Made by a program: the position numbers and the translations under genes. A stretch of 64,000 bases of DNA from Flavobacterium sp. (GTDB lineage Bacteria > Bacteroidota > Bacteroidia > Flavobacteriales > Flavobacteriaceae), in the NCBI GenBank assembly GCA_020403245.1, contig JADBYA010000006.1, positions 25,494 through 89,493 on the forward strand, read 5' to 3'. Shown piece by piece: positions 14,407 through 34,457 of this stretch (positions within the stretch are counted from its first letter, which is position 1; each line of letters opens with the position of its first letter). The notes beneath the pieces are model-generated. The model had not been told where the DNA came from, ran no database searches, and was given only the letters and a program-made list of their open reading frames with translations.

Positions 14407-16110
14407 CTATTTCTTAATAATTTTTAAATTTTGAATACCATTTGAATTTTCTACTCTCAAAAAATAAATTCCTGCTTGATATCCACTCATATCAAAAGCA
14501 AAGTCAGCATTTACTTCATTTACATAATGAATTTTTCCTAAAACATCTGATAAAGTAATTTTATTTTGCTCATCATTCAATTGCAAATTCAATATATCTT
14601 CTACTGGATTTGGATAAGCAAAATGTTTTTTGATAGCAAAATTTGATATTCCAAGTGAGCAATTATTATTACCTACAACATAAGAAAAATAATTTGTTAC
14701 AGATAATCCACCAGCGTAAGCAAACTTAACGGCATAAGTAATGATTGAACCTATTGTTTGTCCGGTAATAGTTTGAGTAAAAGTTTGTCCTGAAACATTG
14801 GTCATTTGAGTCTCGGTAAATGGTGATTGTCTTCTTAAAAAAGCAACTAATCCTACTCTATTGTCTAGCAACTCAAATGTAATTTTTACATCTGTTCCTA
14901 TGGTTTGAAAAGAATAATTATACCCTAAAGTAAACGTACCCTCAGTTGCTTGAGTACTGTTTCCTGAGCACTGCGGATTAAAAGTTGTTGTTGCATTCAG
15001 AACAATCGGGCTATTGGCAACCGCATTTCCAGTCATGTCAGTTGCTGCAATTGTGAAAGTATAATTGGTATTAGACGCTAAATTTGGAATAACTACTGAT
15101 TTTTGCACTCCTGACGGATTATACACAGTGGTAGTTGTTCCACCGGGATAGGAAATAGTATAAGCGATTGTTCCTGAATTATCATTTGCATTCATTAACA
15201 ATTCAACTGAAGAACCAGTAACGGAACCAAGAGAGGCTACAAAATTAGTTGGTGCTTGAGTATCTATAGCAGTATTTTGATACACTCTAATATAATCAAT
15301 TATCATAGATGCTTGTGTGAAATTTGCTGGAATTGTGCCTGCAAAACCTCCCATAGCTATATTTAGTAGAAAATATTGATCTGCATTAAATGGCCAAGTA
15401 CTGGCATTTTTAACAGCTGGATTATACGTATAAAAAGCAACATTATCTAATAAGAATGTAATTTGATTAGGCGACCAATTCATTGAATAAATATGGTAGT
15501 TCTGCGCTATATCTGACGCTTGAATACCTCCTTTATTTATTGTGTTTCCGGAAGATGAAGTGGTGTGTATTGCAGCCCCAATATAATTAATTGGTTGTCC
15601 AGGGAAAATCCCATGTTCCATAATATCAATTTCGCCACAAGCAGGCCAACTCGTAGTTCCAAAATTCTGGTCAAAAAAACCACCGTCTTCATTAATGTTT
15701 TTTCCCAAAAGCCATAAAGCAGGCCATGTTCCCTGTGCGTTTGGTACTTTAGCTCTGATATCTACTCGACCATAAGTAAATGCAAATTTGGAGTTTAACC
15801 TCGCAGAGGTATATTGTTTTGTAACATTTTGGTTTGTAAATGTTTCTTTTTTTGCAACAATATTTAAATTTCCATTATTTACAAAAGAGTTACTTAATAA
15901 GTTAGTATAGTGCTGCACTTCATTATTAAACCAACTTCCTCCTGCTGGTAATTGAGTTTGATGAAACCATTTGTTCGAATCAATTGCTCCATTGGTATTG
16001 AACTCGTCCGACCATACTAAGTTGTTATAAACAACATCGATTTGAGAATATGATAATTGACTGATAAGAAAAAAAGAAAAAACAAATTTATAAAGCTTAG
16101 CATTTTTCAT
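14407..16110 (-). CDS. GH16 endo-beta-1,3-glucanase (laminarinase) with FN3-like and extra modules plus a T9SS C-terminal sorting domain
   Basis: GH16 catalytic motif GEIDIMEH and WPALWLLG. C-terminus YPNPVEDILNL...GIYFLRVENSNGIQNLKIIKK is a type-A T9SS CTD. Confidence 0.85.
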   Translation of the reverse strand: MKNAKLYKFVFSFFLISQLSYSQIDVVYNNLVWSDEFNTNGAIDSNKWFHQTQLPAGGSWFNNEVQHYTNLLSNSFVNNGNLNIVAKKETFTNQNVTKQYTSARLNSKFAFTYGRVDIRAKVPNAQGTWPALWLLGKNINEDGGFFDQNFGTTSWPACGEIDIMEHGIFPGQPINYIGAAIHTTSSSGNTINKGGIQASDIAQNYHIYSMNWSPNQITFLLDNVAFYTYNPAVKNASTWPFNADQYFLLNIAMGGFAGTIPANFTQASMIIDYIRVYQNTAIDTQAPTNFVASLGSVTGSSVELLMNANDNSGTIAYTISYPGGTTTTVYNPSGVQKSVVIPNLASNTNYTFTIAATDMTGNAVANSPIVLNATTTFNPQCSGNSTQATEGTFTLGYNYSFQTIGTDVKITFELLDNRVGLVAFLRRQSPFTETQMTNVSGQTFTQTITGQTIGSIITYAVKFAYAGGLSVTNYFSYVVGNNNCSLGISNFAIKKHFAYPNPVEDILNLQLNDEQNKITLSDVLGKIHYVNEVNADFAFDMSGYQAGIYFLRVENSNGIQNLKIIKK

Positions 16111-16163
16111 AATCAGATTTACTTTTATTATTTTTAATTTAATTTAAATAGGTTTAAAATATG

Positions 16164-17603
16164 TTAATGGGTTGCAGATTGTTCTCCACGTATAGCCAAC
16201 AACTCTGCCTTAATCTCTTTGGCTTTTTGTTCATCTAAGTCATAATTCCTCATCACCCACATGGCAATTAAGGTACCGAATATTGGCACCCCTGAAAAGA
16301 AAAGTCTCAATCCTGTTACTGCACCTTCTGGTTGTGTTGGAGCACCTGCTTTAAAAGCTACTGCTGACATAATTACACCTGTTAATAATCCCGCAATTGC
16401 AAAACCAAATTTCACCATCCACCAATAAATTGCACCAAAAACACCTTCTCTTCGTTTGCCAGACTTTAATTCGTCCATATCACAAACATCGGCTGTCATC
16501 GACATCATTAATGTAAACAAACTTCCAATTCCGAAGGAAAAGAAAGGCAGGGCAAACAAAAACATATAGGGTTTACCCGGAATAAAAAGAAACCAAAGCA
16601 ATATATATCCGAAAACCGAAATTCCTTGAGAGAGCAGAAATGCTTTCTTTTTCTCCATTTTTTTTGACATCCAAGCTACAATTGGAATAACAATAAAAGT
16701 AGTTGCTAAAGCACCGCAACATCCGAAAAGTGTTGGCCAAATTCCTGCTGCTGCTGTATCTCCATTAAATAAATAATACACTACAATAAAAAAAGTAAAA
16801 CCTGCAACCGTATTGAAGGCATTAAAAATGAAAAACGTTGCTATACAGAGTTTTCTGAAGGGTTTATTGCTAAATGCTTCTTTGAAACTTATTAAAATTT
16901 CTTTTAAACTTCCTCCGATGGTACTTAATGTTAATGGCTCTAGACTATTATCGAACTTGGTAGATTTACTTTTAATAAAAATGGCTGGAACCATAGCTAA
17001 TAACATAAATACAACACCTACCCATATTGCCAAAGTTCTAGTAGCGGTATCAGCATTAGGAAACCAAGATGGATCATACATAATTACCCAAAACCAAGGA
17101 GCAATTACCCAAGCCCATTGACCTATCCACTGAGATATGGCCATTATACTGGTTCTTTCGTGAAAATCATCACTCATTTCATAACCCATGGCCACGAAAG
17201 GAACACTAAAAATAGAAAGCCCAATATGAAATATAAGTGAAAAAGTTAGAAAAAAGGTAAAATTATACAGTATACTATCTTCTCTATATAGTTGCCACAT
17301 AATCATAAAAGCAATTCCCATGATAATAGAACCATAAAACACATATTGTCTTCTTCTTCCCCAAACCGATTTAGTATTATCTGAAATAAATCCCATAATT
17401 GGATCAAAAAAGGCATCGACAATTCTTGGTACAAAAAATAAAACACCCCACATCCAAGAAGGCATACCTAAATTCTCTACTAACACAACCATAAAAATCC
17501 CTAGTGCTGCAGGAAACATTTGGTTGGCTAGCATTCCTAAACCAAAGGCTATTTTTTGACCCATAGGAACTTTTCCTGATGAAGTTGAAGTAATTATTGA
17601 CAT
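16164..17603 (-). CDS. MFS transporter, glycoside-pentoside-hexuronide (GPH) cation symporter family
   Basis: About 12 TM helices. GPH loop motif DNTKSVWGRRRQYV. 479 aa. Confidence 0.8.
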   Translation of the reverse strand: MSIITSTSSGKVPMGQKIAFGLGMLANQMFPAALGIFMVVLVENLGMPSWMWGVLFFVPRIVDAFFDPIMGFISDNTKSVWGRRRQYVFYGSIIMGIAFMIMWQLYREDSILYNFTFFLTFSLIFHIGLSIFSVPFVAMGYEMSDDFHERTSIMAISQWIGQWAWVIAPWFWVIMYDPSWFPNADTATRTLAIWVGVVFMLLAMVPAIFIKSKSTKFDNSLEPLTLSTIGGSLKEILISFKEAFSNKPFRKLCIATFFIFNAFNTVAGFTFFIVVYYLFNGDTAAAGIWPTLFGCCGALATTFIVIPIVAWMSKKMEKKKAFLLSQGISVFGYILLWFLFIPGKPYMFLFALPFFSFGIGSLFTLMMSMTADVCDMDELKSGKRREGVFGAIYWWMVKFGFAIAGLLTGVIMSAVAFKAGAPTQPEGAVTGLRLFFSGVPIFGTLIAMWVMRNYDLDEQKAKEIKAELLAIRGEQSATH

Positions 17604-17627
17604 AGGTACTGTTTTTAAATTTTATGG

Positions 17628-19136
17628 TTAGTTTGGTTTTATTAAAATTGTTTGCAATGCTTTAGCATCAATAGAAATAGTTGACTTTTTATTAGATAGG
17701 TTTATTTCTAGTATTTGAATAACATCTGTTGGATTAAAAACAACTACTGCAATGCTACCATCAGGGTTTTTAACTGCTGTTGCCATAAGTTCATTATTAT
17801 TCATAGTGCATCCAATTTTCACAGCACCTGGACGCATGAATTTGCTAAAATGAGAGATTACATAATACAATGGTGTAAAGTACACTTCGTCTTTTTCAGT
17901 GTCTACAATCACAGGTGCTACACACCAGTTTTTGAACCAATTGGGACCACCTTGTGTATTTAAAACCATATTCCAATCGATCCATCCATCAACCCAATTG
18001 TTTAAACAACCAATAATATCAGCTGCATAACGATTGACTGGTGCGTATTTTGGATGTAAGTATTTGTCATTTTCACTTGCCCAGTCCCAACCCCAGTCTG
18101 TTGCCTCCTTTTTCCAATACCAAGCATCGTCTTTCCAATGTGGAATTTCAGAGTCGACACAAGCCTCTGTTTGAATTAAGTATTTATTAGGCGCTTTTTG
18201 ATGAGCATATTGCAACGCTTCGGGGAAAACTTCATAAGTGCTTTCATACCAATGAATAGCCAAACCATCAAAATATTTAGTTGATTTCTCGTCATTATAC
18301 ATCACATCAACCCATTCTTTTATACCCGCTCTATTTTGATCGTATCCTAATATCTTTATATCTCCCCAACCGTCTTTTTCTAGTTTTGGACCTAAATGAT
18401 TTTGAACAAATTGAGTCATCTCATTAGGTGAAAAAAGGGTGCTTTCCCAGTTATTTCCATTACCGTGAGGTTCATTGATAACGGTTACTCCCCAAATATT
18501 GATACCTTCTTTTTTATAGGCCTCTAAATATTTAGAAAAATATAAAGCAAACGTATCGTTGTATTGGGGCAGTAATTTTCCGCCCACATATTTTTTGTTG
18601 TCTTTCATCCATGGTGGAGCTGTCCAAGGTGAAGCAATGATAGTAAAACCTTCTTTTGAAATAGCTTTGGCTTCGAGAATCATGGGTATCAAATCCGATT
18701 TGTCATCTTCAATTGTAAAGTTTTTTAATTCTAAATCATCATCAACTTTGGCATACGTATAATTGCTTAATGAAAAATCACAAGAAGCTATGTGAGTTCT
18801 AGTCAGAGAATAATTAGCTCCTTCTTCGCTAAAATAAGCGTCTACTATTTTTTTGCGATTGTCTTTACTCAATCGATTGAGTAAAGAAGCCGAAGCTTCA
18901 GTAAAAGAGCCACCAAAACCAGTTATTGTTTGGAATTGTTGTTCAGGATTTAGCGTTATTTGTATTGGATTGGAATTTTTATGAAAATCGGTTATCTTGT
19001 TTAAAGTATTTCCGTTAGCAGAAGTTTCATAAACGTGTACTGTCATTTCTTTTGAGCTTCCGCAACCATACAATAATAATAGGAAACCAATTATCATTAG
19101 TTTAATAAGGGATATTTTTAAATGTACTTTATCCAT
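17628..19136 (-). CDS. GH30 glycoside hydrolase (beta-1,6-glucanase/glucosylceramidase-like) lipoprotein
   Basis: Lipobox LLLYGC. Clan-A motifs VINEPHG (acid/base) and LIQTEAC (nucleophile). GH30-like overall. Confidence 0.8.
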   Translation of the reverse strand: MDKVHLKISLIKLMIIGFLLLLYGCGSSKEMTVHVYETSANGNTLNKITDFHKNSNPIQITLNPEQQFQTITGFGGSFTEASASLLNRLSKDNRKKIVDAYFSEEGANYSLTRTHIASCDFSLSNYTYAKVDDDLELKNFTIEDDKSDLIPMILEAKAISKEGFTIIASPWTAPPWMKDNKKYVGGKLLPQYNDTFALYFSKYLEAYKKEGINIWGVTVINEPHGNGNNWESTLFSPNEMTQFVQNHLGPKLEKDGWGDIKILGYDQNRAGIKEWVDVMYNDEKSTKYFDGLAIHWYESTYEVFPEALQYAHQKAPNKYLIQTEACVDSEIPHWKDDAWYWKKEATDWGWDWASENDKYLHPKYAPVNRYAADIIGCLNNWVDGWIDWNMVLNTQGGPNWFKNWCVAPVIVDTEKDEVYFTPLYYVISHFSKFMRPGAVKIGCTMNNNELMATAVKNPDGSIAVVVFNPTDVIQILEINLSNKKSTISIDAKALQTILIKPN

Positions 19137-19138
19137 AA

Positions 19139-20392
19139 TTAATTTTGCTTTTTAATTAATCTTGGAACTTTAACATCCTGCCATAGAGCTTTTTCATTGC
19201 CACTGTATGATTTTGTAATTGGTTTACCATTTCTGGTTAATCCTTTTAAAAAACCTTTATCTATTGCATCCCAAAGCGCAAATTTGGCTTGGTTTTGCAA
19301 ATTGAATAATCCGAAATGATTCTCGTACCCTTCCGGATTCAAACCATCTTTCCAATTTTCATCAAAAGCTTCAAAATAAAAACAGGTGATTTTTTCTTTG
19401 TTTGACCATTCTCGCATCAATTTATAATATTGAGCAGCTTTGTATTCGTCGGCTGCTTTGGAACCATTATTTCCGTAAAACACATTATCATTGGAAGTCC
19501 AACCTGTTTCACCAATTTGAACTGGCTTATCAACGCCAATCGATTTCATATAGTTTACAACTCCATTATATTGTGAAATAGCATAATCTCTGGCTCGCAA
19601 CATAGCCGCATCTATTTTCATTTTATCGGACAAATTTGTTTCATTTTCTTTAATTCCCCATATTTCTGGAAAAAAACGTTCATCGTGAATTGGATACGTA
19701 TGCAAGGAAATAAAATCTACCGCTTTTATTAATTTATTCAAATCTTCGGTATGATATTGCGCATCACCTCCTCCCCAAGAAAGATAATTGTCTGAGCTTG
19801 TTATCCATAGATTTTTTGGTAATTGTTTTGTTTTTTTTAATTCTTGCAAATGATTTACCCATTTTAAAATGATATTTGGCGTTACATAATAACTGGTTGC
19901 CCATTTAACCATTGCCTCATTTCCAACAGAAATAAGCTTAATAATCTCAGGATATAGATTGGCTAATTCTACAGCTTTTTGAATTTCAATGGCATTACGT
20001 TGACTTTCTTCTTCATGAATTGGGGCGATTTCTGTCCAAGCATTTTTACAATCAATCCATGCGCCTAGCATCACATACATTTCAAACTTAGGATTCTCTT
20101 TTTTTAATTCGGTTATAGCTTTTAGCACATTTACTATTTCCTCCCGATGCAGATTATAGGTTCTGATTATTTTGATATTTATAGCTGCTAAAATTTTTAA
20201 ATCCTCCTTAACCTCCGAAACATTTGGTTCAATATCTCTTGTATTGGTGCGATAGCCACCATAACAAATACCTTGATATTTGGGATTTCCTAAAAGTATT
20301 TTGGCGGTAACTTCTTTTGAATTTTGCGCATAAAGTTTACCATAAGTAAAAGATAGCAGCAGCAGAAATACTATGTAGATTTCTTTTTTCAT
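19139..20392 (-). CDS. GH17 beta-1,3-glucan hydrolase/transglycosylase, periplasmic
   Basis: Signal peptide. SVGNEAMV and IGETGWTSND match the GH17 acid/base and nucleophile motifs. One-nt TAATG overlap with the upstream gene. Confidence 0.7.
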   Translation of the reverse strand: MKKEIYIVFLLLLSFTYGKLYAQNSKEVTAKILLGNPKYQGICYGGYRTNTRDIEPNVSEVKEDLKILAAINIKIIRTYNLHREEIVNVLKAITELKKENPKFEMYVMLGAWIDCKNAWTEIAPIHEEESQRNAIEIQKAVELANLYPEIIKLISVGNEAMVKWATSYYVTPNIILKWVNHLQELKKTKQLPKNLWITSSDNYLSWGGGDAQYHTEDLNKLIKAVDFISLHTYPIHDERFFPEIWGIKENETNLSDKMKIDAAMLRARDYAISQYNGVVNYMKSIGVDKPVQIGETGWTSNDNVFYGNNGSKAADEYKAAQYYKLMREWSNKEKITCFYFEAFDENWKDGLNPEGYENHFGLFNLQNQAKFALWDAIDKGFLKGLTRNGKPITKSYSGNEKALWQDVKVPRLIKKQN

Positions 20393-23300: not shown

Positions 23301-23862
23301 CACCATTAGGCAAAATGTTTTGAATACCATCTAAAAGAGTAATTGAATAATCAGTTGCTGCATTACTGATCAACTCCGATGTTTTTACAAATCCAAATAA
23401 ATTACTAGAACTCCATTGATATCTAAAAGTGAGCTGAAAATCATCATGAACTTCTTCAAAAAGGATTTTATTTCCATACTCATTTTTGTAAATATTCCGA
23501 CTTAAATTATAGTTTTCATTAAAACGTTCCGAAAAAGGTTCCCAAAGATAAGTTTGATCATCTGAATGAATTTGGAAAATGGTTTTACTTCCAGTGATAT
23601 CAGCAAATTCAGTAATTTTATCATCGGTATAATAAGGAAAAAGAGCCAATTCGGCGTTTTTTCTTCCTGCTGTTAGTCCGCCATTGCTTGATATAAACAT
23701 CCAGTGATTAGAATCACTTACGATACTCATAAAAAATGGTCGCATGCTATCATTATTAGCAATTTTATAATAATTTTCATTATCAATAACGACCATTTCT
23801 AAAGAAACAGTTTTATCTACAATTTTTGAATCATTATCCATAATTGTTTGGCTTTGGCTCAT
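20392..23862 (-). CDS. Large cytoplasmic GH94/GH149-like glycoside phosphorylase (putative beta-1,3-glucan phosphorylase)
   Basis: 1156 aa with no signal peptide. Motifs RRHGDPSRPWNKF and RPEWNDANNAL resemble GH94-type phosphate-binding and DWND catalytic motifs (recalled from memory). Embedded between GH16 and GH17. Confidence 0.55.
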   Translation of the reverse strand: MSQSQTIMDNDSKIVDKTVSLEMVVIDNENYYKIANNDSMRPFFMSIVSDSNHWMFISSNGGLTAGRKNAELALFPYYTDDKITEFADITGSKTIFQIHSDDQTYLWEPFSERFNENYNLSRNIYKNEYGNKILFEEVHDDFQLTFRYQWSSSNLFGFVKTSELISNAATDYSITLLDGIQNILPNGVSSDLQATTSNLVDAYKRNELLQESGLGIFALSAIIVDKAEPSEALKANVAWSLGIDKPTYLLSSLQLPAFRKAQQLQNETDIKGEKGAYFVSTNLYLVKNSTKSWHIIANVNQDQSQVIQLADAICNDEELEYKVLEDIELGKQNLIALNATADGLQFTADKRKDTRHFSNVLFNIMRGGIFDNNYQVEKSDFVNYISKANNSVFENNSVFFNTLPETFDYSHLQQLIASVDDADIIRLCTEYLPLKFSRRHGDPSRPWNKFSINTRSEIDGSKILDYQGNWRDIFQNWEALAYAYPEFIDGMIHKFLNASTFDGYNPYRVTKEGFDWETIEPDNPWSYIGYWGDHQIIYLLKFLEFIEKYQPGKLNSYFDKECFVYAAVPYTIKSYQEILQNPKDTILFNHEWDAKINKRRDSIGADGALLRDNNDEIYHVNFIEKILATVLAKMSNFIPEAGIWMNTQRPEWNDANNALVGNGVSMVTLYYLRRFLKFFQQLLENSNQETIKISNEMVEFYHAIRESLIEFQPQLSGSINNQDRKRILDALGQAASEYRNHVYYSGFWGKKRTHSMAGLKKFTQVSIDFIEHAIKANQRHDKLYHAYNLMSIENDGISISYLPEMLEGQVAVLSSGYLDAKKSIEVLDALRSSDLYRKDQNSYILYPNKKLPKFLEKNTIPKEKVEKSFLLKKLLEKGNLQLINQDIKGGFHFNGNFHNANDLKEALLKLGNYPIYKELVAIETETVLQIFEEVFNHKAFTGRSGTFYGYEGLGSIYWHMVSKLQLAVLEVTNFAIEQNENQDVINLLSTHFEEIGAGIGVHKSPVVYGAFPTDPYSHTPFSKGAQQPGMTGQVKEDILTRIGELGVKMHDGKLKFRPNLLHEKEFLAEDTEAVFIQIDGTKKLITLEKDSLAFTFCQVPIIYTKSTANQMEIFYKNGNRNRVDSLELDEENSQKIFQRTAEIVKIIVSIKDGLLS

Positions 23863-26179: not shown

Positions 26180-26203
26180 TTTTTCAATTTTTTAATTTTT
26201 TAT

Positions 26204-29200: not shown

Positions 29201-29323
29201 TTCCTTTCCATCAACAACAAGTTTAATCCCTTTACTGTCATTCACAACAGCGACTTTACTGCTCTGAGAATAAACAGATGTTGAAAAAATTAGAACTGCA
29301 AATTGTAAAATAAAATTTTTCAT
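26204..29323 (-). CDS. Fusion protein: N-terminal clan GH-A-like TIM-barrel glycosidase domain plus roughly 600-aa C-terminal predicted outer-membrane beta-barrel
   Basis: Signal peptide (FSTSVYSQ). NTIRVY, LLGNENNYG (Glu168) and VLFTEFG (Glu269) are spaced as clan GH-A catalytic residues. Residues ~440-1039 are strand-rich with alternating hydrophobicity (NVLTGLTYNVNSNLQLAPNFLW, VGGDIRMIYKKVKVVSSVKF, EWEIRTYVHINIGK). Confidence 0.5.
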   Translation of the reverse strand: MKNFILQFAVLIFSTSVYSQSSKVAVVNDSKGIKLVVDGKEFIVNGMNWDYIPIGENYNYSLWKQTDNFIKDALDSEMGLLKNMGVNTIRVYSGIPKKWIEYIYTNHGIYTMLNHSFGRYGLTLDGVWTPNTEYSDSKTQALLMKEVKEMISEYKDAKGLLLFLLGNENNYGLFWDGAETEDIPLKDRKSTVRAESMYKFFNSAVVAMKAIDTSHPIAICNGDLLFLDIISKECRDVDILGTNVYRGVSFGDLFERVKKEYGKPVLFTEFGADAFNVLTNQEDQNAQAFYLKGNWKEIYENAAGLGKSENCIGGFTFQFSDGWWKFGQTKNLDSHDSNASWSNGGYQKDFTEGQNNMNEEWFGICAKGPTSANGSYQLYPRAAYYVLKDLHKFNPFDNGANVTILNNNFENANLMDAALRARGDKAALGTNDTDILKVSNLRAEFTTFSTGGSLLTTPEVDDPNTNTYPNKTGFDHMQSYFIGIEGNPSSNMKANVNFNILGNVANNPINEIFYENRGRAQNVVTEDGNVLTTDVNRIQVYNASYKWNTKDFEVRGFYRVGHYHWGYEGDFFGLYPETNYGPNLDIYNGETLGLEIDGKGSLDGLKAAFGPQLWWGANPAYLLKYSKKIGRVDATAVYHEDIASAAGAITSLFIPQPITRRATVHFKTKLGNLGIELGGIWGGQPLNGREFQMMDGDVVKVDKVKSSDNWGGKAKLTFSEGRFNAYAQGAIQGLVANGGADLTQTFTGWRLKDTGSGNQMNVLTGLTYNVNSNLQLAPNFLWQKPLVEAMPNGVDAPGRLRNILEDPFIVRVNRETVGGEFLLTYDPTPATWMYEWNNDMVEDAKFAFNTGFVYRHLPTTQDAAIGFLANRSLFAFERSAPAQDLWESNTRIVSKLTPDFGIIANIYFGNGQANGDSERTINRVGGDIRMIYKKVKVVSSVKFNDWGPFDYHRDFNLTFPVQTALDISTSVGKPSWFILPDTRIGIMGIWRSLDQYSPRYLPTFVPENTFPAVPPLSPVGFGNGSEWEIRTYVHINIGK

Positions 29324-29379
29324 AATATAAATTATTTGGTTTGGTTGATAAATCTAAATTAAATTTAATAGTTACATTA

Positions 29380-29402
29380 TTTAAACAAATCTTTTGTTTA
29401 AA
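29380..29402. promoter_or_regulatory. Perfect 10-bp-arm palindrome in the operon leader (candidate operator)
   Basis: TTTAAACAAA-tct-TTTGTTTAAA read directly, 57 nt upstream of the ATG at 29323. Confidence 0.3.
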
Positions 29403-29659
29403 ATACAATTCTGTACCCCTATTTTTTGTGTTTCAATAAAAAACAATGTCCTAAATTGCGATATTGTAAATTTACATTTTTTATAATTTGACTTTCAAAT
29501 TATATATTAAAGAAACTATACAAGGTGATTTTAAAATCAAAAAAGTAGCTTAGAGTAGATAAATAAAGAAAATAATACTAACTCATGTAATGAAGTCCTA
29601 TAAAGAATATACAGCTTGTATAGTTTATGTATAGGCAATATGTACAAATAGGAGTTTTT

Positions 29660-32491
29660 TTATATTGAAAGAATGTATTCAACAAGGCCAGTTTCGTGTG
29701 ATAAATCCATTTTTTTGCGCAAACGATATCGTTTAATTTCTACACTTCGCACAGATATATTTAATAAAGGTGCTATTTCTTTTGACGATAAATTTAATCT
29801 CAAATAGGCACAAAGTCTCAAATCGTTAGGAGTTAATGATGGATGCTCTTGTTTTACTTTCTTTAAAAAATCTTTATCAGCTGAGTCAAATGCTTCTTTG
29901 AATACATTCCACGCATTGTCTACTGACACGTTTTTATTTATAGTTGTTGTAATTATTGATTTAATGCTTCTAGAACTCGACTCATCGGATGATTTCTTCA
30001 AATCTTCTCTAATTAGTTTTAATAACTCATCCTTTTTAATTAAGTTCATTGTTGATAAAGCTAACTCTCTATTCTTTTCATTCACATCCAATGAAAGTTG
30101 CTCATTTTTTAATTTCATTAATTGTTGCTCATTTTCTAACTCTTTTATTTCAAGCAGAAGATTATTTTCTTCTATTAATTTTTGCTTTTGTTTTGAATAA
30201 TAATTTCCATAAGCTTTATTTATATAATAGGCAAAAACACACATTAAGAGGAAATAGATAATTAGTGCAAAATTTGTTCTGTACCAAGGTTTTGATATTG
30301 TGAAAGAATAAACTACACTGCTTTCCGGTTGAGAATTGATTAACTTTGATCGCAATTTGAATGTATAATTTCCTGGTGGTAAATTTTTAAAGTTAATGGT
30401 TGACTTAGAACTCCAATCACTCCACTGATCTTGAAATCCCTCTAATAAATATTGATATTCAGTAATTATGTATTTATTATATCCAGGAACAGCATAGCTA
30501 AAAGTAATGTTATTTTCATCATGTGAAAATTTTCCGTTCTCTATAATTGGAAAACTAATTAGTTTACCATTGAGTTTATTGATGCTAATGTTAGTAAGAA
30601 TTACATTAATATTTTTAAAATTTAATCCATCAATATTAAATGTATAATATCCATCAGTAGTTCCTATGAGATAATTTGAATTATTTAGCTGAGTAATATT
30701 TTCATATCCCAACATAGAGTTTGTAATTGAAGATGGAATAGAAATCACATTTTTCTTTAATTCAGCATTCAATTTATTTACTGTAAAATAGTTGATATAA
30801 TTTTTTGAAAATAACCATAATTTATTCGAACTGTCAATTATCAATTTCCCAGAAGTATATTCATTATTTTCAAAAATTGAACTTAATGTTTTGTCGATTT
30901 CAAACTCTTTTGACTTTTGATTTAGCTTAAAAATTCCTTCCTTATAGGCATAATATATTGCATTATTGAATTTAGAAAGACCAGAATTTTTGCCTTTTTC
31001 AGGTTTGGTATAAGTATATAGCTTTGAACCTTTTCTAAAATCAGAGTCCAATTGAAAGCGAAAGATACCTTTGTACTCATGACTTACATATATTTCATTT
31101 GAATTTGTAATTTCGAAATGTTTAGAGGAGTAGCTAAAACCTGAAATTTTATTTCTAAAAACCCAGCGATTATTAATTTTCTCCAATACCGATATTCCAT
31201 AATAATTACCTTGAAGTAATAAATTGCTATTATTTGGAACAACTTCAAGTTTCCAAGTTCCCGATTGAGAAAAAATTTGATTAGAAGAATCTTTTTCAAT
31301 GATAAATGTTCCTGAGTCATGACCGCAAAACAAGTTTCCATCATGAATAAATAAAGACCAAACTTGACCTTTTGTTCCTTTGATAAATTTGAACTGATTG
31401 TCATTTAAAAAATCTTTGTAAAATAATCCTTGATTAGTTCCGATATACAATTTCCCTTTATGAAGAACAGAAGCGTACACGGTTCCTAAAGCACCTGTAT
31501 CGTCAAAAAAACTTCGGATTGGAGATTGCAAATTGATACAATTTATTCCATTATCCAATCCAAGCCATATGTTGCGGTCAATATCCTCAAAAATAGATAA
31601 AACTGTGTTGTTACTTAATCCTTTACTTTGCGTAATATGGTATTTTACCGTTCCCTCTCTTGTTAAAATAAAAACACCATTAGAGATTGTTCCAATAGCA
31701 AAGTTGCCATTTTCAAGCATTTGACTGCTATAAATACTACTTAACGAAATAGCTGAATCAGCTTCTGTTCTAAATTTTACTAAACTCCCATTGGTAAATT
31801 TATAAAAACCATCAAATTGAGTATGAATTAACAATCCATCAGTAACAGCAAAAACATTGACAATTTTGTTGTTTTTAAGTAATTCATTATTTAATACAAG
31901 CCGACTTGACCCATTTTCTATTTCAAACAAATCGTAATTTACAGTTTGATAATAAATAGAACTTGAGGTTTTAAAAGATTTTAAAATATTATTTTGTGGT
32001 GTTACGATTTTGAACGCTTTGGTTTTGGTATCATAAATGTAAATTTTATCTAGGGATTGAAAAATAACCCACTGATCATAATTCCAAATATTCCAAAATT
32101 GTTCATCTACATTAATTTTAGATTTAATTTTCTGACTTAAGGAAGTATATTGAAGTCTACCATTTTTTTCTCTCACCCAATAGCCAAATTCCATGTAACA
32201 TCCAGTAAATATTTTATCACCAATAACTTTTACTGATCTAACTATTGTTTCGTTTGGTGATTTATATAACGTCCAGTTAGAACCATTAAATTCTAATAAT
32301 CCTTCATTGTTTGCAAAATAAATAAAATGATTTTTATCCTGAGAAACCATCCAATTTTGATTTCCTGCAGTATATGTAGTAGAACTATATTTAACAATTG
32401 GGGGTAAATCTTGAGCATAAATACTACTAGTAAATACTACTAGTATTATCATACTTATTAATCTTTTGTTAAATAAAATCTTATCAGCCAT
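29660..32491 (-). CDS. Transmembrane one-component sensor/regulator: periplasmic beta-propeller repeats plus Y_Y_Y domain, TM, coiled coil, LuxR-type HTH
   Basis: Signal/anchor, then propeller repeats. Y_Y_Y motif YQYLLEGFQDQWSDWS...NLPPGNYTFKLRS. TM FALIIYFLLMCVFAYYI. C-terminal LTPNDLRLCAYLRLNLSSKEIAPLLNISVRSVEIKRYRLRKKM. No kinase or receiver motifs. Confidence 0.8.
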   Translation of the reverse strand: MADKILFNKRLISMIILVVFTSSIYAQDLPPIVKYSSTTYTAGNQNWMVSQDKNHFIYFANNEGLLEFNGSNWTLYKSPNETIVRSVKVIGDKIFTGCYMEFGYWVREKNGRLQYTSLSQKIKSKINVDEQFWNIWNYDQWVIFQSLDKIYIYDTKTKAFKIVTPQNNILKSFKTSSSIYYQTVNYDLFEIENGSSRLVLNNELLKNNKIVNVFAVTDGLLIHTQFDGFYKFTNGSLVKFRTEADSAISLSSIYSSQMLENGNFAIGTISNGVFILTREGTVKYHITQSKGLSNNTVLSIFEDIDRNIWLGLDNGINCINLQSPIRSFFDDTGALGTVYASVLHKGKLYIGTNQGLFYKDFLNDNQFKFIKGTKGQVWSLFIHDGNLFCGHDSGTFIIEKDSSNQIFSQSGTWKLEVVPNNSNLLLQGNYYGISVLEKINNRWVFRNKISGFSYSSKHFEITNSNEIYVSHEYKGIFRFQLDSDFRKGSKLYTYTKPEKGKNSGLSKFNNAIYYAYKEGIFKLNQKSKEFEIDKTLSSIFENNEYTSGKLIIDSSNKLWLFSKNYINYFTVNKLNAELKKNVISIPSSITNSMLGYENITQLNNSNYLIGTTDGYYTFNIDGLNFKNINVILTNISINKLNGKLISFPIIENGKFSHDENNITFSYAVPGYNKYIITEYQYLLEGFQDQWSDWSSKSTINFKNLPPGNYTFKLRSKLINSQPESSVVYSFTISKPWYRTNFALIIYFLLMCVFAYYINKAYGNYYSKQKQKLIEENNLLLEIKELENEQQLMKLKNEQLSLDVNEKNRELALSTMNLIKKDELLKLIREDLKKSSDESSSRSIKSIITTTINKNVSVDNAWNVFKEAFDSADKDFLKKVKQEHPSLTPNDLRLCAYLRLNLSSKEIAPLLNISVRSVEIKRYRLRKKMDLSHETGLVEYILSI

Positions 32492-32589: not shown

Positions 32590-32600
32590 TTAACTTAAAC

Positions 32601-34457
32601 TTATTCTTTGATAAATCTTGTTGAAGATACAGTTCCGTCAACAGTGGTTTTTACTACATAGACCCCTATTTGAAGTGTTGATACATCTAATGTAACTATC
32701 TCTTTATTTGGAGTTTCTGAAATAACTTGTTGTCCCAAGAAATTGTAAACAGCAACTTTTTCAATTGTAGCTAATGCTTCTATGTTTAAAACATTAGTAG
32801 CTGGGTTTGGATACATTTTTACTTTAGAAAGTTCAAAATTTTCAGCATCTAAAACAGTGTTTTTGTGCAAATAAAGATTGTCATAATAAACAATGTCTAA
32901 ATTTGATGTAATTACAAATTGGGCAAAATCGCTTACACTTGGGCAAGCATTTCCTGGAGGTGTATTAATACAATTCAAAGCTGTAAAAGGAATATCTATA
33001 GATATCCAAGCTCCTTCAGAACCACTTGTTAAAACATTAGCATTTGTTGCAGTATACTCAAATGCATTTGTTTCACCTGCAGTATTATTCCAGTTTGAAA
33101 ATTTAAAACTAAACACTTTATCTTGAGTTGGTGTAGCTGTCCAAATGTCTATATGAAAACGAGTAAACCCAGCAGCGTTAAATCTTCCTGCTAAAAAAGC
33201 AATCCCTTCACATCCTAAACCAGTTACTTTATTTGTATTATTCCCAGCAACTTGAATTAAACTAGTTGATCCTGGACACCAAGAAGTATTGTACGTATTA
33301 TCATCACCACCTGAATAACCAAGAGTAGCAACTGGAGTATAAGCATCACTAAAAATTGATTTAACGTCAGCAGCAGGTCTGTTTGGTGGTGTTGGAGCAG
33401 CAACTGTTGGAGCAGGAACTACAGGAGGTGTTCCAAGTGGACCTCGAATGTTATCTACATAAAATGTTCGTGCTGGTGTAGGAACAGTGGGATTAAAAAA
33501 TCCTACGGCACCTGGAGCCCAATACGTATGAATAACAAAACCACTGTATGTTCCATTTGCTGGTGCTGGTTGACCATCTAGAGAAGTATTAAATGTAAAA
33601 GATATTGTTTGCCATGTACTTCCGCCTGGATGTGAAGCTGAAGCAGCAACTATAGCTGGACCGCCTACTCCTCCTGTTACTTTAACTAAAAATGTTATTG
33701 GATCAGCAGAAAAAACATCCATTGTCATGGTCTTTGTAGGTGTCAAGTTAACCAATGATGTCAAGTTTAAATTTATACCTTGCCATGGCTGCCCTGCAGG
33801 GTTTCCAACAATTTTAAGCACTTGAGAAGTATTTGAACCTGTACCCGTTTCAACTACAGGAGCTGGGCCGTCACCAAAAGGACCACCATTTACACCACCG
33901 GTTTCAGTTGTTTCAAAACCTAAAAGCAAATCTAAAGTTGCGGGAGGCGCTACAACAAGTTGTAAAGTTACATTGTCTATGAAAAAATCAACATTACTTA
34001 ATCCGCCTTCAAAACCTAACTTCATTGCCGAAAAAGTTTGCCCAACTGTGAAAGTTGCTTCATAATTTGTCATTGTTGATGTAAGATTGTAGTCTTGTTG
34101 GTGTAGGGCAGTAAATCCACCACCATTTTCACCAAAATACAATTTCAACGGACGTGCACTTGTTCCTCTTGCAGCAAAAGTTACTTTGTAAGTTTGACCA
34201 GCCGTAAGAGACGCAATTTGAGTTGGAGACAATTCCTGATTAAGTTGAATGTGCCATGTTTGAACACCCGCTCCCGCAATAGCTGTAATATTAGCTTCAC
34301 TATTGGCTGCATTTATGGTGGCGGATACTCCAGCAAAATCTGCTAAGTATGTTGTCCAAGAAGTTAAACCATTACCAAAGTCACCATTGGTAATGATGTT
34401 TTGTGCAGAGCCGCTTGTGGCGAACATTGCAATTAAAAAATAAGTAATTTTTTTCAT
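32601..34457 (-). CDS. Secreted non-catalytic carbohydrate-binding protein (CBM4/9-like N-terminal module, Pro-rich linker, beta-glucan-binding-like module, T9SS CTD)
   Basis: NIITNGDFGNGLTSWT start typical of CBM_4_9. Linker PPVVPAPTVAAPTPPNRP. Module SIFSDAYTP...WISIDIPFTA...VYYDNLYLHK. C-terminus YPNPATNVLNI...GVYVVKTTVDG is a T9SS CTD. Confidence 0.7.
   Translation of the reverse strand: MKKITYFLIAMFATSGSAQNIITNGDFGNGLTSWTTYLADFAGVSATINAANSEANITAIAGAGVQTWHIQLNQELSPTQIASLTAGQTYKVTFAARGTSARPLKLYFGENGGGFTALHQQDYNLTSTMTNYEATFTVGQTFSAMKLGFEGGLSNVDFFIDNVTLQLVVAPPATLDLLLGFETTETGGVNGGPFGDGPAPVVETGTGSNTSQVLKIVGNPAGQPWQGINLNLTSLVNLTPTKTMTMDVFSADPITFLVKVTGGVGGPAIVAASASHPGGSTWQTISFTFNTSLDGQPAPANGTYSGFVIHTYWAPGAVGFFNPTVPTPARTFYVDNIRGPLGTPPVVPAPTVAAPTPPNRPAADVKSIFSDAYTPVATLGYSGGDDNTYNTSWCPGSTSLIQVAGNNTNKVTGLGCEGIAFLAGRFNAAGFTRFHIDIWTATPTQDKVFSFKFSNWNNTAGETNAFEYTATNANVLTSGSEGAWISIDIPFTALNCINTPPGNACPSVSDFAQFVITSNLDIVYYDNLYLHKNTVLDAENFELSKVKMYPNPATNVLNIEALATIEKVAVYNFLGQQVISETPNKEIVTLDVSTLQIGVYVVKTTVDGTVSSTRFIKE

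What the first reader, a model, noticed from the sequence alone, without database searches (positions are those of the whole stretch)
14407..34457. Laminarin-type beta-glucan utilisation locus that lacks SusC/SusD
Eight minus-strand genes run from 29323 to 14407 with gaps ranging from a 1-nt overlap to 53 nt. In order they are:
- the GH-A/beta-barrel fusion
- a binder lipoprotein
- a GH16 lipoprotein
- a cytoplasmic GH94/149-like phosphorylase
- a periplasmic GH17
- a GH30 lipoprotein
- a GPH symporter
- a GH16 with a T9SS CTD

Upstream lie a propeller/Y_Y_Y/LuxR sensor and a T9SS-secreted CBM protein.

- **Compartment logic** (from the signal-peptide pattern): surface endo-cleavage, then periplasmic trimming and debranching, then MFS uptake, then cytoplasmic phosphorolysis.
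- **What is missing:** Bacteroidota polysaccharide utilisation loci are defined by a susC/susD pair. No ORF in the whole 64 kb looks like a TonB-dependent transporter or a SusD.
- **What replaces it:** the two genes in the usual susC/susD slot are the 1039-aa fusion and the 478-aa lipoprotein. This suggests an alternative, possibly TonB-independent, outer-membrane uptake route.
Basis: partly seen in the sequence, partly recalled or inferred. Interest (0 to 1): 0.75.

Follow-up and report, generated by a model that had tools for sequence, protein, structure and literature searches.

The report
Laminarin operon with enzyme–barrel fusion protein
This Flavobacterium operon for digesting the algal sugar polymer laminarin has no SusC/SusD importer nearby and instead starts with a widespread, unstudied protein that joins a laminarin-cutting enzyme to a large outer-membrane barrel, which may be a second way of getting the sugar into the cell.

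Summary
Eight co-directional genes (14407-29323, gaps of -1 to 53 nt) plus an upstream BguR-type regulator and a T9SS CBM protein form a laminarin locus. No ORF of 300 aa or more in the 64 kb matches SusC, SusD or a TonB-dependent transporter.

The locus type is already published. It is the same cassette as laminarin-induced "PUL 2" of Formosa sp. Hel1_33_131, which also lacks SusC/D. That strain has SusC/D pairs in two other laminarin loci.

The under-described part is the first gene. Its 1039-aa product is a GH158-like endo-beta-1,3-glucanase domain with intact catalytic residues, fused to a roughly 24-stranded outer-membrane barrel with no plug. It has no profile similarity to SusC. The family has thousands of members in at least five diderm phyla. 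In every locus examined it sits among beta-1,3-glucan genes and next to a CBM-bearing lipoprotein. Of 47 related Bacteroidota loci with full flanks, 41 have no SusC within 10 kb.

A TonB-independent "bind, cut and pass" outer-membrane module is the best reading. Transport, the side of the membrane that carries the enzyme domain, and independence from a SusC/D pair elsewhere are all untested.

The parts
32601..34457 (-). Secreted CBM protein (618 aa): signal peptide, CBM_4_9, a middle domain shared with the 478-aa lipoprotein, and a T9SS C-terminal sorting domain
   Evidence: Pfam CBM_4_9 at 4.9e-17 and Por_Secre_tail at 3.7e-12. Residues 352-532 match the C-terminal domain of the 478-aa lipoprotein family, E 5e-21. 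Syntenic in Flavobacterium loci.
29660..32491 (-). BguR-type membrane-spanning one-component regulator (943 aa): signal peptide, propeller, Y_Y_Y, one TM helix near residues 739-757, coiled linker, GerE HTH. It has no kinase or receiver domains.
   Evidence: Pfam Y_Y_Y, Reg_prop and GerE, and no HisKA, HATPase or REC. TM segment found. The architecture is as described for BguR of F. agariphila (bioRxiv 10.64898/2026.01.10.698779). Directly upstream of the fusion gene in 44 of 80 related loci.
29324..29659 (-). Intergenic region upstream of the first operon gene. It holds repeated CTATACA/TGTATAG units and blocks conserved among Flavobacterium loci, and is a candidate promoter and BguR operator.
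   Evidence: Alignment of nine Flavobacterium intergenic regions. The sigma-70 scan is not informative for Bacteroidota.
28124..29323 (-). The 1039-aa protein, residues 1-400: SPI signal peptide (1-20), then a GH158-like (clan GH-A) TIM-barrel catalytic domain with N167-E168 as acid/base and E269 as nucleophile
   Evidence: Family profile against PDB sequences: GH158(Pro) 9ORO at E 5.5e-10 and BuGH158 6PAL at 6.8e-08. The GNE and TEFG motifs align. Foldseek top hits are GH158 (1.5e-15) and GH157. E168 and E269 are invariant in 73 sequences.
28019..28123 (-). The 1039-aa protein, residues 401-435: linker with two short helices between the enzyme domain and the barrel
   Evidence: AF2 secondary structure shows helices at 402-411 and 414-425. 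Sequence shown.
26204..28018 (-). The 1039-aa protein, residues 436-1039 plus stop: outer-membrane beta-barrel of about 24 strands with no plug. Its conserved motif at residues 812-848 is NRE..E..LTYDPTPATW.Y.W..D..EDA.FA.
   Evidence: AF2 C-domain model has pLDDT 84.3 and pTM 0.84. Foldseek matches TonB-dependent transporter barrels, MOMP, OprD/Occ, chitoporin and LptD at TM 0.24-0.38 and 6-11% identity. Hydrophobicity alternates along the strands (2.4, against 1.2 in the GH domain), and short turns alternate with long loops. No Pfam or NCBIfam hit. hhalign against SusC gives 0.4%. There are 20 invariant barrel positions across phyla.
24743..26179 (-). Lipoprotein of 478 aa (Cys25) built from a CBM-like domain, a Big_2 Ig domain and a second CBM-like domain. 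It is the likely surface laminarin binder and partner of the barrel.
   Evidence: Lipobox INYSC followed by acidic residues. Weak CBM30 and Big_2 hits. Follows the fusion gene in every related Bacteroidota locus that extends past it (77 of 80). Not a SusD: hhalign aligns only the signal peptide, 8%. Its N-terminal domain is homologous to the lipoprotein next to a non-Bacteroidota fusion gene, E 1.7e-21.
23908..24708 (-). GH16 lipoprotein (266 aa), the likely surface endo-beta-1,3(4)-glucanase
   Evidence: Pfam GH16 at 5.4e-27. Lipobox LFLGC followed by S-T-D-E. Present in 70 of 80 related loci.
20392..23862 (-). GH149 beta-1,3-oligoglucan phosphorylase (1156 aa), cytoplasmic
   Evidence: NCBIfam NF058639 at 1781 bits, above the 1150 cutoff. 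PDB 6HQ6 at 1742 bits. No signal peptide.
19139..20392 (-). GH17 endo-beta-1,3-glucanase (417 aa) with an SPI signal peptide, periplasmic. Ortholog of FbGH17A.
   Evidence: PDB 6FCG (Formosa GH17A) at E 1.7e-163 over the full length. Pfam GH17 hit is weak.
17628..19136 (-). GH30 lipoprotein (502 aa), the likely beta-1,6 debranching enzyme
   Evidence: Pfam GH30 at 1.2e-79 plus GH30C. BT3312-like by NCBIfam, below its cutoff. PDB FaGH30 5NGK at 175 bits.
16164..17603 (-). GPH/MFS_2 cation symporter (479 aa), for inner-membrane uptake of oligosaccharides
   Evidence: Pfam MFS_2 at 8.6e-65. TIGR00792 at 189 bits, below its 231-bit cutoff.
14407..16110 (-). Secreted GH16 (567 aa) with an fn3 domain and a T9SS C-terminal sorting domain
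   Evidence: Pfam GH16 at 1e-19, Por_Secre_tail at 7.3e-11 and a weak fn3 hit.

Best explanation
**What the locus is.** It is a BguR-activated laminarin (beta-1,3/1,6-glucan) utilisation operon of a freshwater-type Flavobacterium. It belongs to the published cassette type known as laminarin PUL variant B, and matches "PUL 2" of Formosa sp. Hel1_33_131.

**Shown by sequence and model:**
- The first gene encodes a Sec-exported protein with no lipid anchor. Its N-terminal 400 residues form a GH158-like retaining endo-beta-1,3-glucanase domain with intact catalytic residues. Its C-terminal 600 residues form a plug-less outer-membrane barrel of about 24 strands.
- The second gene encodes a lipoprotein made of two CBM-like domains and an Ig domain.

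**Inferred mechanism:**
1. The lipoprotein, the GH16 lipoprotein and the two T9SS-secreted proteins capture and nick laminarin at the cell surface.
2. The chain or its oligosaccharides cross the outer membrane through the fusion protein's own barrel, without TonB.
3. The tethered GH158-like domain cuts them. It most likely sits at the periplasmic mouth of the barrel, so that hydrolysis makes passage one-way.
4. Periplasmic GH17 cuts the backbone and GH30 removes the beta-1,6 branches.
5. The GPH symporter imports the oligosaccharides.
6. Cytoplasmic GH149 phosphorolyses them to glucose-1-phosphate.

This module can work alone or alongside a SusC/D pair.
For: **Locus identity**
- Searches give the enzyme assignments.
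- The gene order is the same as FORMB_24670-24750, and GH17 is a 547-bit ortholog of FbGH17A.

**Published proteomics (PMC6246565, SI Table S3)**
- The first gene of the Formosa cassette, FORMB_24670, is induced 196-fold by laminarin in the membrane fraction.
- At 1.19 %riBAQ it is more abundant than the two laminarin TonB-dependent receptors (0.46 and 0.45).
- It is SignalP-positive and BOMP-positive.
- FORMB_24680, the second gene, is seen only on laminarin.

**Fusion anatomy**
- Searches support the two-domain structure.
- There is no plug and no SusC homology.

**The barrel looks like more than an anchor**
- It has 20 invariant positions across at least five phyla, many of them charged or aromatic.

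**Conserved partnership and context**
- A fusion-lipoprotein-GH16 core is present in 70 of 80 Bacteroidota loci.
- 41 of 47 loci with full flanks have no SusC within 10 kb.
- In Treponema and three other distant loci the fusion again sits among GH16, GH17, GH30 and GH149-like genes with MFS or ABC importers.
- There it is flanked, sometimes with overlapping reading frames, by CBM9 or CBM-like lipoproteins, and no TonB-dependent transporter lies within 10 kb.

**Orientation**
- Short turns precede the odd-numbered strands, which places the barrel's N-terminus on the periplasmic side.
- The only long turn on that side carries the most conserved motif.

**Enzymology lead**
- GH158 enzymes can be processive on beta-1,3-glucans (PMC13195107).
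Against: - There is no direct evidence that anything passes through the barrel.
- Formosa sp. Hel1_33_131 has laminarin-induced SusC/D pairs in trans, and its "selfish" uptake of fluorescent laminarin was attributed to them.
- Ten of 80 related loci carry SusC or SusD in cis. One gammaproteobacterial locus has a TonB-dependent transporter 5 kb away.
- Whether this genome has a SusC/D laminarin locus elsewhere could not be checked.
- Canonical GH158 (BuGH158) is a surface enzyme (PMC7157763). One family variant carries an N-terminal CBM_4_9. Both fit a surface-displayed domain equally well.
- The identification of FORMB_24670 with this family rests on synteny and annotation, not on its sequence.
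Confidence: 0.55

Rival explanations
1. **Anchor only.** The barrel merely holds the endo-laminarinase in the outer membrane. The enzyme is displayed on the surface, either like an autotransporter or tethered some other way, and does the job of the surface lipoprotein BuGH158. Oligosaccharides enter through a SusC/D pair encoded elsewhere in the genome or through unrelated porins.
For: - BuGH158 is a surface enzyme in a SusC/D locus.
- Formosa sp. Hel1_33_131 combines the same cassette with SusC/D loci in trans.
- Ten of 80 loci have SusC or SusD in cis.
- The P0152 variant has an N-terminal CBM_4_9.
- The 24-residue helical linker could span a pore, as in type Va autotransporters.
Against: - A conserved 600-residue barrel of about 24 strands is far larger than any known anchor or 12-strand autotransporter barrel, and there is no PF03797 hit.
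- The barrel has 20 invariant positions across phyla.
- 41 of 47 full-flank loci and four of five non-Bacteroidota loci encode no other outer-membrane transporter nearby.
- From general knowledge, Bacteroidota normally display enzymes as lipoproteins or T9SS cargo.
Confidence: 0.33
2. **Divergent SusC/SusD.** The 1039-aa protein is a highly diverged TonB-dependent transporter and the 478-aa lipoprotein a diverged SusD, so the locus is a canonical PUL after all.
For: - The sizes (1039 and 478 aa) and the position right after the regulator resemble a SusC/D pair.
- Foldseek's best barrel matches include TonB-dependent transporter barrels.
Against: - There is no Plug, CarbopepD_reg or TonB_dep_Rec hit, although the same scan finds them in true SusC proteins of related loci.
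- The N-terminal 400 residues are a catalytic TIM barrel, not a plug.
- hhalign gives 0.4% against SusC and 8% against SusD, the latter over the signal peptide only.
- The Foldseek barrel matches are generic: TM 0.24-0.38, 6-11% identity, with porins and LptD scoring equally well.
- The lipoprotein is built of CBM and Ig domains.
- True SusC/D coexist with both genes in the ten loci that have them.
Confidence: 0.02
3. **Export role.** The fusion acts in beta-glucan secretion or remodelling, as a porin with an associated hydrolase in the manner of PgaA/PgaB or BcsC/BcsZ, rather than in uptake.
For: Exopolysaccharide systems pair large outer-membrane barrels that carry N-terminal periplasmic domains with glycoside hydrolases (general knowledge).
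Against: - Every neighbourhood examined is catabolic. They contain GH16, GH17, GH30, GH3, a GH149 phosphorylase and sugar importers, and no glycosyltransferase or synthase was identified in them.
- The Formosa ortholog is induced by laminarin.
- BguR is an activator of laminarin use.
Confidence: 0.03

Closest known systems
Laminarin "PUL 2" of Formosa sp. Hel1_33_131 (FORMB_24670-24750; Unfried et al. 2018, PMC6246565)
   Same: - The gene order is the same: hypothetical/"GH2" protein, hypothetical protein, GH16, PKD/CBM protein, GH149, GH17, GH30, MFS.
- There is no SusC/D inside the cluster.
- GH17 is a 547-bit ortholog of FbGH17A.
- The cluster is laminarin-induced.
   Different: - Formosa is marine.
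- It fuses a second GH17 to the MFS transporter and has an extra PKD protein.
- Its first two genes were left as hypothetical proteins, and uptake was attributed to SusC/D pairs in PUL 1 and PUL 3.
- Whether this Flavobacterium has such pairs is unknown.
Laminarin PUL variant B (Kappelmann et al. 2019, PMC6298971) and the BguR-controlled PUL of Formosa agariphila (bioRxiv 10.64898/2026.01.10.698779)
   Same: - It has the same set of GH16_3, GH17, GH30_1, GH149 and GH158 genes with a BguR regulator upstream.
- The gene annotated there as GH158 is, by synteny with L023, L032, L042 and L049, almost certainly this fusion family.
   Different: - Those loci carry SusC-SusD plus an extra binder between BguR and the fusion gene. 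The window does not.
- The barrel part of the "GH158" gene is not mentioned in any paper of the searchable library.
BuGH158 and GH158(Pro), the characterised GH158 endo-beta-1,3-glucanases (PDB 6PAL, 9ORO)
   Same: - They share the clan GH-A TIM barrel and the aligned NE acid/base and TEFG nucleophile motifs.
- They are the best sequence and fold matches.
- They occur in beta-1,3-glucan loci.
   Different: - Only about 12-15% identity in the structural alignment.
- Canonical GH158 enzymes are about 400 aa with a C-terminal Ig-like domain, and BuGH158 is predicted to act at the cell surface. Here the catalytic domain is followed by a 600-residue membrane barrel.
SusC/SusD TonB-dependent glycan importers
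   Same: - A large outer-membrane barrel is encoded next to a glycan-binding lipoprotein, directly after the locus regulator.
- The barrel is similar in size to a 22-strand TonB-dependent transporter barrel.
   Different: - It has no plug, no TonB box region and no carboxypeptidase-regulatory-like N-domain.
- It has no profile homology to SusC.
- The partner is a CBM/Ig protein, not a TPR SusD.
- It therefore cannot be energised by TonB in the known way.
Sugar-specific porins (chitoporin ChiP, maltoporin LamB)
   Same: - They are the proposed functional analogue: TonB-independent passage of oligosaccharides, encoded within the catabolic locus.
- Chitoporin is among the Foldseek hits.
   Different: - Those porins have 16-18 strands, are not fused to an enzyme and are not homologous in sequence.
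- The resemblance concerns how the protein may work, not membership.
Outer-membrane proteins with an N-terminal soluble domain and a large C-terminal barrel (LptD, PapC/FimD ushers, PgaA, BcsC), and type Va autotransporters such as EstA
   Same: - The domain order is the same: soluble N-terminal domain, then C-terminal barrel.
- The barrel has 24-26 strands, as in LptD and the ushers.
- An enzyme passenger, as in EstA, is a possible alternative topology.
   Different: - None of these carries a glycoside hydrolase fused to the barrel.
- Autotransporter barrels have 12 strands.
- There is no sequence similarity to any of them.

Membership tests
Canonical Bacteroidota PUL | An adjacent susC/susD gene pair within the locus | tested here: not met
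   No Plug, TonB_dep_Rec, CarbopepD_reg or SusD_RagB hit in any ORF of 300 aa or more in the 64-kb window. The positive control in L023 and L083 is detected.
SusC / TonB-dependent transporter (for the 1039-aa protein) | An N-terminal plug domain with a TonB box inside a 22-strand barrel | tested here: not met
   No Plug hit. Residues 21-400 are a GH158-like TIM barrel whose first strands align to BuGH158 residues 4-73. hhalign against eight SusC proteins gives 0.4% probability.
SusD (for the 478-aa protein) | An alpha-helical TPR-based SusD_RagB fold | tested here: not met
   No SusD Pfam hit; only weak CBM30 and Big_2 hits. hhalign against nine SusD proteins aligns only the signal peptide, 8%. 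The family profile hits Ig and CBM30 structures.
GH158 | A clan GH-A (alpha/beta)8 barrel with a conserved Asn-Glu acid/base after beta-4 and a Glu nucleophile after beta-7 | tested here: met
   GN167E168 and TE269FG align with the GH158(Pro) and BuGH158 motifs. Both Glu residues are invariant in 73 sequences.
GH158 | Closer to GH158 than to other GH-A families | tested here: met
   By profile against PDB sequences, GH158 scores E 5.5e-10 and 6.8e-08, against 2e-4 or worse for GH2. By Foldseek, GH158 is at 1.5e-15, GH157 at 7e-12 and GH2 at 1e-10. Similarity is low, at 12-15% identity. CAZy/dbCAN assignment was not run. Marine papers label the syntenic gene GH158.
GH158 | A C-terminal eight-stranded Ig-like domain packed on the TIM barrel | tested here: not met
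   In the AF2 secondary structure, the catalytic domain is followed by two short helices and then the membrane barrel. No Ig-like domain is seen. The canonical architecture is described in PMC7157763.
GH158 | [quoted passage not shown] | not testable with these tools
   This needs the recombinant domain (residues 21-400) assayed on laminarin, curdlan and mixed-linkage glucan.
Laminarin PUL variant B / Formosa PUL 2 cassette | Co-linear GH16, GH149, GH17, GH30 and sugar transporter genes downstream of the two unknown genes | tested here: met
   Window order, compared with FORMB_24670-24750. The same order is seen in most of 80 related loci. The GH17 is orthologous to 6FCG.
Laminarin PUL variant B / Formosa PUL 2 cassette | Induction by laminarin | not testable with these tools
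   Shown only for Formosa orthologs and for the F. agariphila PUL.
BguR one-component regulator | Signal peptide, propeller and Y_Y_Y sensor, single TM helix and GerE HTH, with no HisKA, HATPase or REC domain | tested here: met
   Pfam hits. TM helix at residues 739-757 and signal peptide. The 943-aa length compares with 940 aa for BguR.
Type Va autotransporter | A C-terminal 12-strand barrel (PF03797) with an alpha-helical linker in the pore | tested here: not met
   No PF03797 hit. The barrel has about 24 strands. A helical linker is present, but its position could not be examined.
Integral outer-membrane beta-barrel protein | Sec signal peptide; antiparallel strands with alternating hydrophobicity; short turns alternating with long loops; fold match to outer-membrane barrels | tested here: met
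   The Formosa ortholog is enriched in the membrane proteome with the same fraction profile as TonB-dependent receptors. In this protein the last residue is Lys rather than an aromatic, while the family consensus ends in Phe.

The most novel reading that the evidence does not exclude
The GH158-like/barrel fusion and its CBM lipoprotein form a previously unrecognised, self-contained glycan import machine that needs no TonB. It would be a wide outer-membrane channel whose own tethered, possibly processive, glucanase sits at the periplasmic exit and rectifies the passage of laminarin chains by cutting them. In this reading it is the main laminarin entry route in many aquatic Bacteroidota, Gammaproteobacteria, Spirochaetota and other diderms. 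That would make it a third uptake mode beside SusC/D "selfish" import and external hydrolysis followed by diffusion through porins.
Probability: 0.3. Interest if true: 0.9.

Novelty: new variant of a known kind. Interest (0 to 1): 0.62.

Why it matters
Laminarin is one of the largest carbon fluxes in the ocean, and models of its bacterial uptake rest on SusC/D transporters.

**How common and how abundant the protein is**
- The family studied here is present in at least 583 species-representative genomes.
- In the one proteome available, it is more abundant than the laminarin TonB-dependent receptors.
- It has so far been treated as a hypothetical protein, as "GH2", or as a plain GH158.

**What would change if its barrel is a channel**
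- SusC/D-based proxies for laminarin consumption would miss a major route.
- Clusters now dismissed as "CAZyme clusters without a transporter" would be complete uptake systems.
- An enzyme fused to a channel would be a new principle for moving polymers across the outer membrane without energy input.

**If it is only an anchor**
It would still be a new way of tethering a glycosidase to the outer membrane, shared across phyla.

A gene deletion system already exists in Formosa agariphila, so the question can be tested directly.

Tried and rejected
- **Divergent SusC/SusD:** rejected by Pfam, NCBIfam and hhalign.
- **Stand-alone barrel homologs**, which would show that the barrel works on its own. 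The candidates P0240, P0246 and P0258 look like fragments or wrong starts and have no clear signal peptide. Inconclusive.
- **N-terminally extended variants as a clue to topology.** One has a CBM_4_9 and three have a degenerate second GH-like domain. Not decisive.
- **Sigma-70 promoter and terminator scan of the operon.** The counts were not above the shuffled expectation, and the method does not suit Bacteroidota.
- **Plasmid collection search with the two genes:** no match.
- **Phmmer of the single full-length sequence against PDB:** nothing. Only the family profile reached GH158.
- **Literature searches.** No paper in the searchable library links GH158 or laminarin loci with a beta-barrel, porin or fusion. 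One search was wasted because "SusC" also matches "susceptible".
- **Myxobacterial outer-membrane glucanase GluM:** considered as a precedent, but no link was found.
- **The abundant Formosa "porin" FORMB_11920:** it is an unrelated DUF1597 protein in a nitrogen cluster.
- **Sequence confirmation that FORMB_24670 belongs to this family:** attempted through a third homology search. Formosa was not among the named hits, so the link rests on synteny and annotation.
- **Coevolution analysis of domain contacts:** not attempted, because there are too few diverse sequences for 1039 columns.

Full report
**1. The observation**

The ORF table reproduces the finding exactly. Eight minus-strand genes run from 29323 to 14407 with gaps of 24, 34, 45, -1, 2, 24 and 53 nt. 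A 336-nt intergenic region separates them from a 943-aa regulator gene, and a 618-aa gene lies upstream of that.

| Coordinates | Product |
|---|---|
| 14407-16110 | GH16 + fn3 + T9SS sorting domain |
| 16164-17603 | GPH/MFS_2 symporter |
| 17628-19136 | GH30 lipoprotein |
| 19139-20392 | GH17 with an SPI signal peptide; 547 bits to FbGH17A of Formosa, PDB 6FCG |
| 20392-23862 | GH149 phosphorylase, no signal peptide; 1781 bits to NF058639, 1742 bits to PDB 6HQ6 |
| 23908-24708 | GH16 lipoprotein |
| 24743-26179 | 478-aa lipoprotein with weak CBM30 and Big_2 hits |
| 26204-29323 | 1039-aa protein with an SPI signal peptide and no Pfam or NCBIfam hit |

No ORF of 300 aa or more in the 64 kb hits a plug, TonB-dependent receptor, carboxypeptidase-regulatory-like or SusD model. 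The 980-aa ORF is UvrA and the 799-aa ORF is a sulfatase. The unannotated 488-aa ORF has no signal peptide. As a positive control, the same scan readily finds SusC and SusD in related loci.

The closest homologs of the 1039-aa protein (95% identity and below) are named Flavobacterium, so the organism is a Flavobacterium.

**2. The 1039-aa protein**

*The models.* An AlphaFold2 model built on 73 diverse homologs has mean pLDDT 80.7. It shows a TIM barrel at residues 24-400, two short helices at 402-425, and then long antiparallel strands to the C-terminus.

*The N-terminal domain.*
- Foldseek's best matches are the two solved GH158 endo-beta-1,3-glucanases (E 1.5e-15 to 3e-14). GH157 comes next, then GH2.
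- A family profile finds GH158(Pro) at E 5.5e-10 and BuGH158 at 6.8e-08 among PDB sequences.
- The alignment places the family's GNE and TEFG motifs on the GH158 acid/base and nucleophile.
- E168 and E269 are invariant in the family.
- The domain is therefore a distant but catalytically intact GH158-like glucanase.

*The C-terminal domain.*
- Modelled alone, residues 430-1039 reach pLDDT 84.3 and pTM 0.84.
- They match only outer-membrane barrels: TonB-dependent transporter barrels, MOMP, OprD/Occ, chitoporin and LptD. TM-scores are 0.24-0.38 and identities 6-11%, so the resemblance is generic rather than to one family.
- I count about 24 main strands.
- Hydrophobicity alternates twice as strongly in these strands as in the GH domain.
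- Turns of 2-4 residues precede strands 3, 5, 9, 11, 13, 15, 19 and 21, while long loops precede the even-numbered strands.
- By the usual rule for outer-membrane proteins, this puts the start of the barrel on the periplasmic side.

*Not a SusC.* There is no plug, and a profile-profile comparison with eight SusC proteins from related loci gives 0.4% probability.

**3. The 478-aa lipoprotein**

It has a lipobox cysteine at position 25, followed by acidic residues. It consists of an N-terminal CBM-like domain, a Big_2 domain and a C-terminal CBM-like domain.
- Its C-terminal domain recurs in the T9SS CBM protein of this window (E 5e-21).
- Its N-terminal domain recurs in the lipoprotein encoded next to a non-Bacteroidota fusion gene (E 1.7e-21).
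- Against nine SusD proteins, only the signal peptide aligns.

It looks like a surface glycan-binding protein, not a SusD.

**4. Distribution and context**

*Size of the family.*
- A search of the 90%-identity clusters finds more than 5,000 proteins at E ≤ 0.001.
- A search of the 50%-identity representatives finds 2,110 at E ≤ 0.001 and 324 at E ≤ 1e-30. Full-length fusions go down to about 30% identity.
- Named members come from Gammaproteobacteria, Treponema and other Spirochaetota, Cloacimonadota, Delongbacteria and Bacteroidales.
- A scan of one genome per species found at least 583 carriers. The best 80 are all Bacteroidota, spread over several orders.

*Gene maps of those 80 loci.* They show a conserved cassette: BguR, fusion, lipoprotein, GH16, an optional CBM/PKD protein, GH149, GH17, GH30 and GPH.
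- The lipoprotein follows the fusion in every locus that extends past it (77 of 80).
- Ten loci carry a SusC or SusD gene.
- Among the 47 loci with at least 8 kb on both sides, 41 have no SusC.
- Where SusC/D are present, the typical order is BguR-SusC-SusD-binder-(small gene)-fusion-lipoprotein-GH16.
- So the fusion and lipoprotein are a constant core, and the SusC/D block is an optional addition. They are not alternatives for one slot.

*Outside Bacteroidota.* The fusion again sits among beta-1,3-glucan genes.
- A gammaproteobacterial locus has GH3, GH17 and a giant GH16.
- A Treponema locus has GH16, an ABC importer and a GH149-sized gene.
- Others contain GH17, or GH30 with an MFS transporter.
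- The flanking genes all encode lipoproteins. Three of them are CBM9 proteins whose reading frames abut or overlap the fusion gene.
- Four of these five loci have no TonB-dependent transporter within 10 kb.

**5. What is already known**

The regulator matches BguR, the membrane-spanning one-component activator of laminarin use in Formosa agariphila. It has a signal peptide, a propeller, a Y_Y_Y domain, one TM helix and a GerE domain, and no phosphorelay domains. That paper lists GH16_3, GH17, GH30_1, GH149 and GH158 together with SusCD in its PUL.

Marine studies routinely list "GH158" in laminarin loci of Bacteroidota and Gammaproteobacteria. The locus corresponds to laminarin PUL variant B of Kappelmann et al..

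The closest precedent is "PUL 2" of Formosa sp. Hel1_33_131.
- It runs FORMB_24670 to 24750 in the same order as here: hypothetical/"GH2" protein, hypothetical protein, GH16, PKD protein, GH149, GH17, GH30, MFS, GH17.
- It contains no SusC/D.
- The strain's SusC/D pairs lie in PUL 1 and PUL 3.

In that study's subproteomes:
- FORMB_24670 rose 196-fold on laminarin in the membrane fraction.
- At 1.19 %riBAQ it exceeded the two laminarin TonB-dependent receptors (0.46 and 0.45).
- It was SignalP-positive and BOMP-positive, but was never discussed.
- FORMB_24680 was detected only on laminarin.

I infer from synteny, annotation and the GH17 orthology that these two proteins are the Formosa counterparts of the fusion and the lipoprotein. 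I could not obtain their sequences.

No paper in the searchable library connects GH158 or laminarin loci with a beta-barrel. The recent GH158 structural paper analysed catalytic domains only.

**6. How it most likely works**

*Shown:* the enzyme set, the localisation signals, the two-domain anatomy of the first protein, its conserved pairing with a CBM lipoprotein, and its conserved beta-1,3-glucan context.

*Inferred:*
1. The lipoprotein and the GH16 lipoprotein, helped by the two T9SS-secreted proteins, bind and nick laminarin at the surface.
2. The barrel lets chains or oligosaccharides through without TonB.
3. The tethered GH158-like domain cuts them.
4. GH17 cuts the backbone and GH30 removes the beta-1,6 branches in the periplasm.
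5. The GPH symporter imports oligosaccharides.
6. GH149 releases glucose-1-phosphate.

*Arguments that the barrel is more than an anchor:*
- Its size.
- Its 20 invariant positions across phyla.
- It is the only outer-membrane protein encoded in most of these loci.

*Arguments for a periplasmic enzyme domain:*
- The loop parity.
- The most conserved barrel motif lies in the one long turn on the presumed periplasmic side.
- Bacteroidota normally use lipidation or T9SS, not autotransport, for surface display (general knowledge).

*Arguments against:*
- BuGH158 is a surface enzyme.
- One variant has an N-terminal CBM.
- The helical linker could thread a pore.

I put the channel reading at about 0.55 and the anchor-only reading at about 0.33.

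**7. Verdict**

- The absence of SusC/D is real and is the commonest state of this cassette.
- The cassette itself is published, and its best-studied carrier has SusC/D pairs elsewhere. "Replacement" is therefore not shown.
- What is under-described is the first gene product: an abundant, laminarin-induced enzyme-barrel fusion found across phyla, with a dedicated CBM lipoprotein. A role in TonB-independent uptake is a reasonable and directly testable hypothesis.

Noticed in passing
window 29324-29659: The intergenic region upstream of the fusion gene holds repeated CTATACA/TGTATAG units. A block (TTGTATAGTTTCT ... ATTATAAAAAATGTAAATTTAC) is shared with three other Flavobacterium loci. A second group of loci shares different blocks (CCTATACA..CAACA and ATGTATGTTTTTTGTTGTGGTT). 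This may be the BguR operator reported in the preprint.
   Followed up: partly
P0152, P0122, P0287, P0365 (homologs found): There are architectural variants of the fusion family. One has an N-terminal CBM_4_9 before the GH domain. Three carry an extra, apparently degenerate, GH-like domain at the N-terminus and reach 1350-1378 aa.
   Followed up: partly
window 32601-34457 and 24743-26179; L007:13203-13838: The T9SS CBM protein and the 478-aa lipoprotein share a CBM-like domain with no significant Pfam match (E 5e-21). The lipoprotein's N-terminal domain is homologous to a small lipoprotein next to a non-Bacteroidota fusion gene (E 1.7e-21). These may be the unclassified laminarin-binding modules mentioned in the BguR preprint.
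   Followed up: partly
L004:9215-9985, L005:9204-10004, L007:9169-10011: In Treponema and two unnamed distant loci, a CBM9 lipoprotein gene lies directly upstream of the fusion gene. In two of the three it overlaps the fusion gene's start, which suggests translational coupling.
   Followed up: partly
P0418: A protein labelled Porticoccaceae (Gammaproteobacteria) is 77% identical to a flavobacterial fusion protein. This is far closer than other gammaproteobacterial members, so it is either a mis-binned contig or a recent transfer.
   Followed up: no
window 34741-37683: A UvrA paralogue with a GTG start, divergently oriented, is syntenic with the laminarin locus in many Flavobacterium genomes (UvrA, CBM protein, BguR, fusion).
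   Followed up: no
window 37909-43621: A separate small cluster lies here: a DUF2490 protein, an unannotated 267-aa ORF, a 799-aa sulfatase with an SGSH_C domain, and a divergent AraC-type regulator. It seems unrelated to laminarin.
   Followed up: no
window 13540-14127: An ECF-type sigma-70 factor gene lies 280 nt downstream of the last operon gene on the same strand. No link to the locus was examined.
   Followed up: no
window 26204-26209: This protein ends in ...INIGK, while the family consensus ends in an aromatic residue (Phe), as is typical of the beta-signal of outer-membrane proteins.
   Followed up: no
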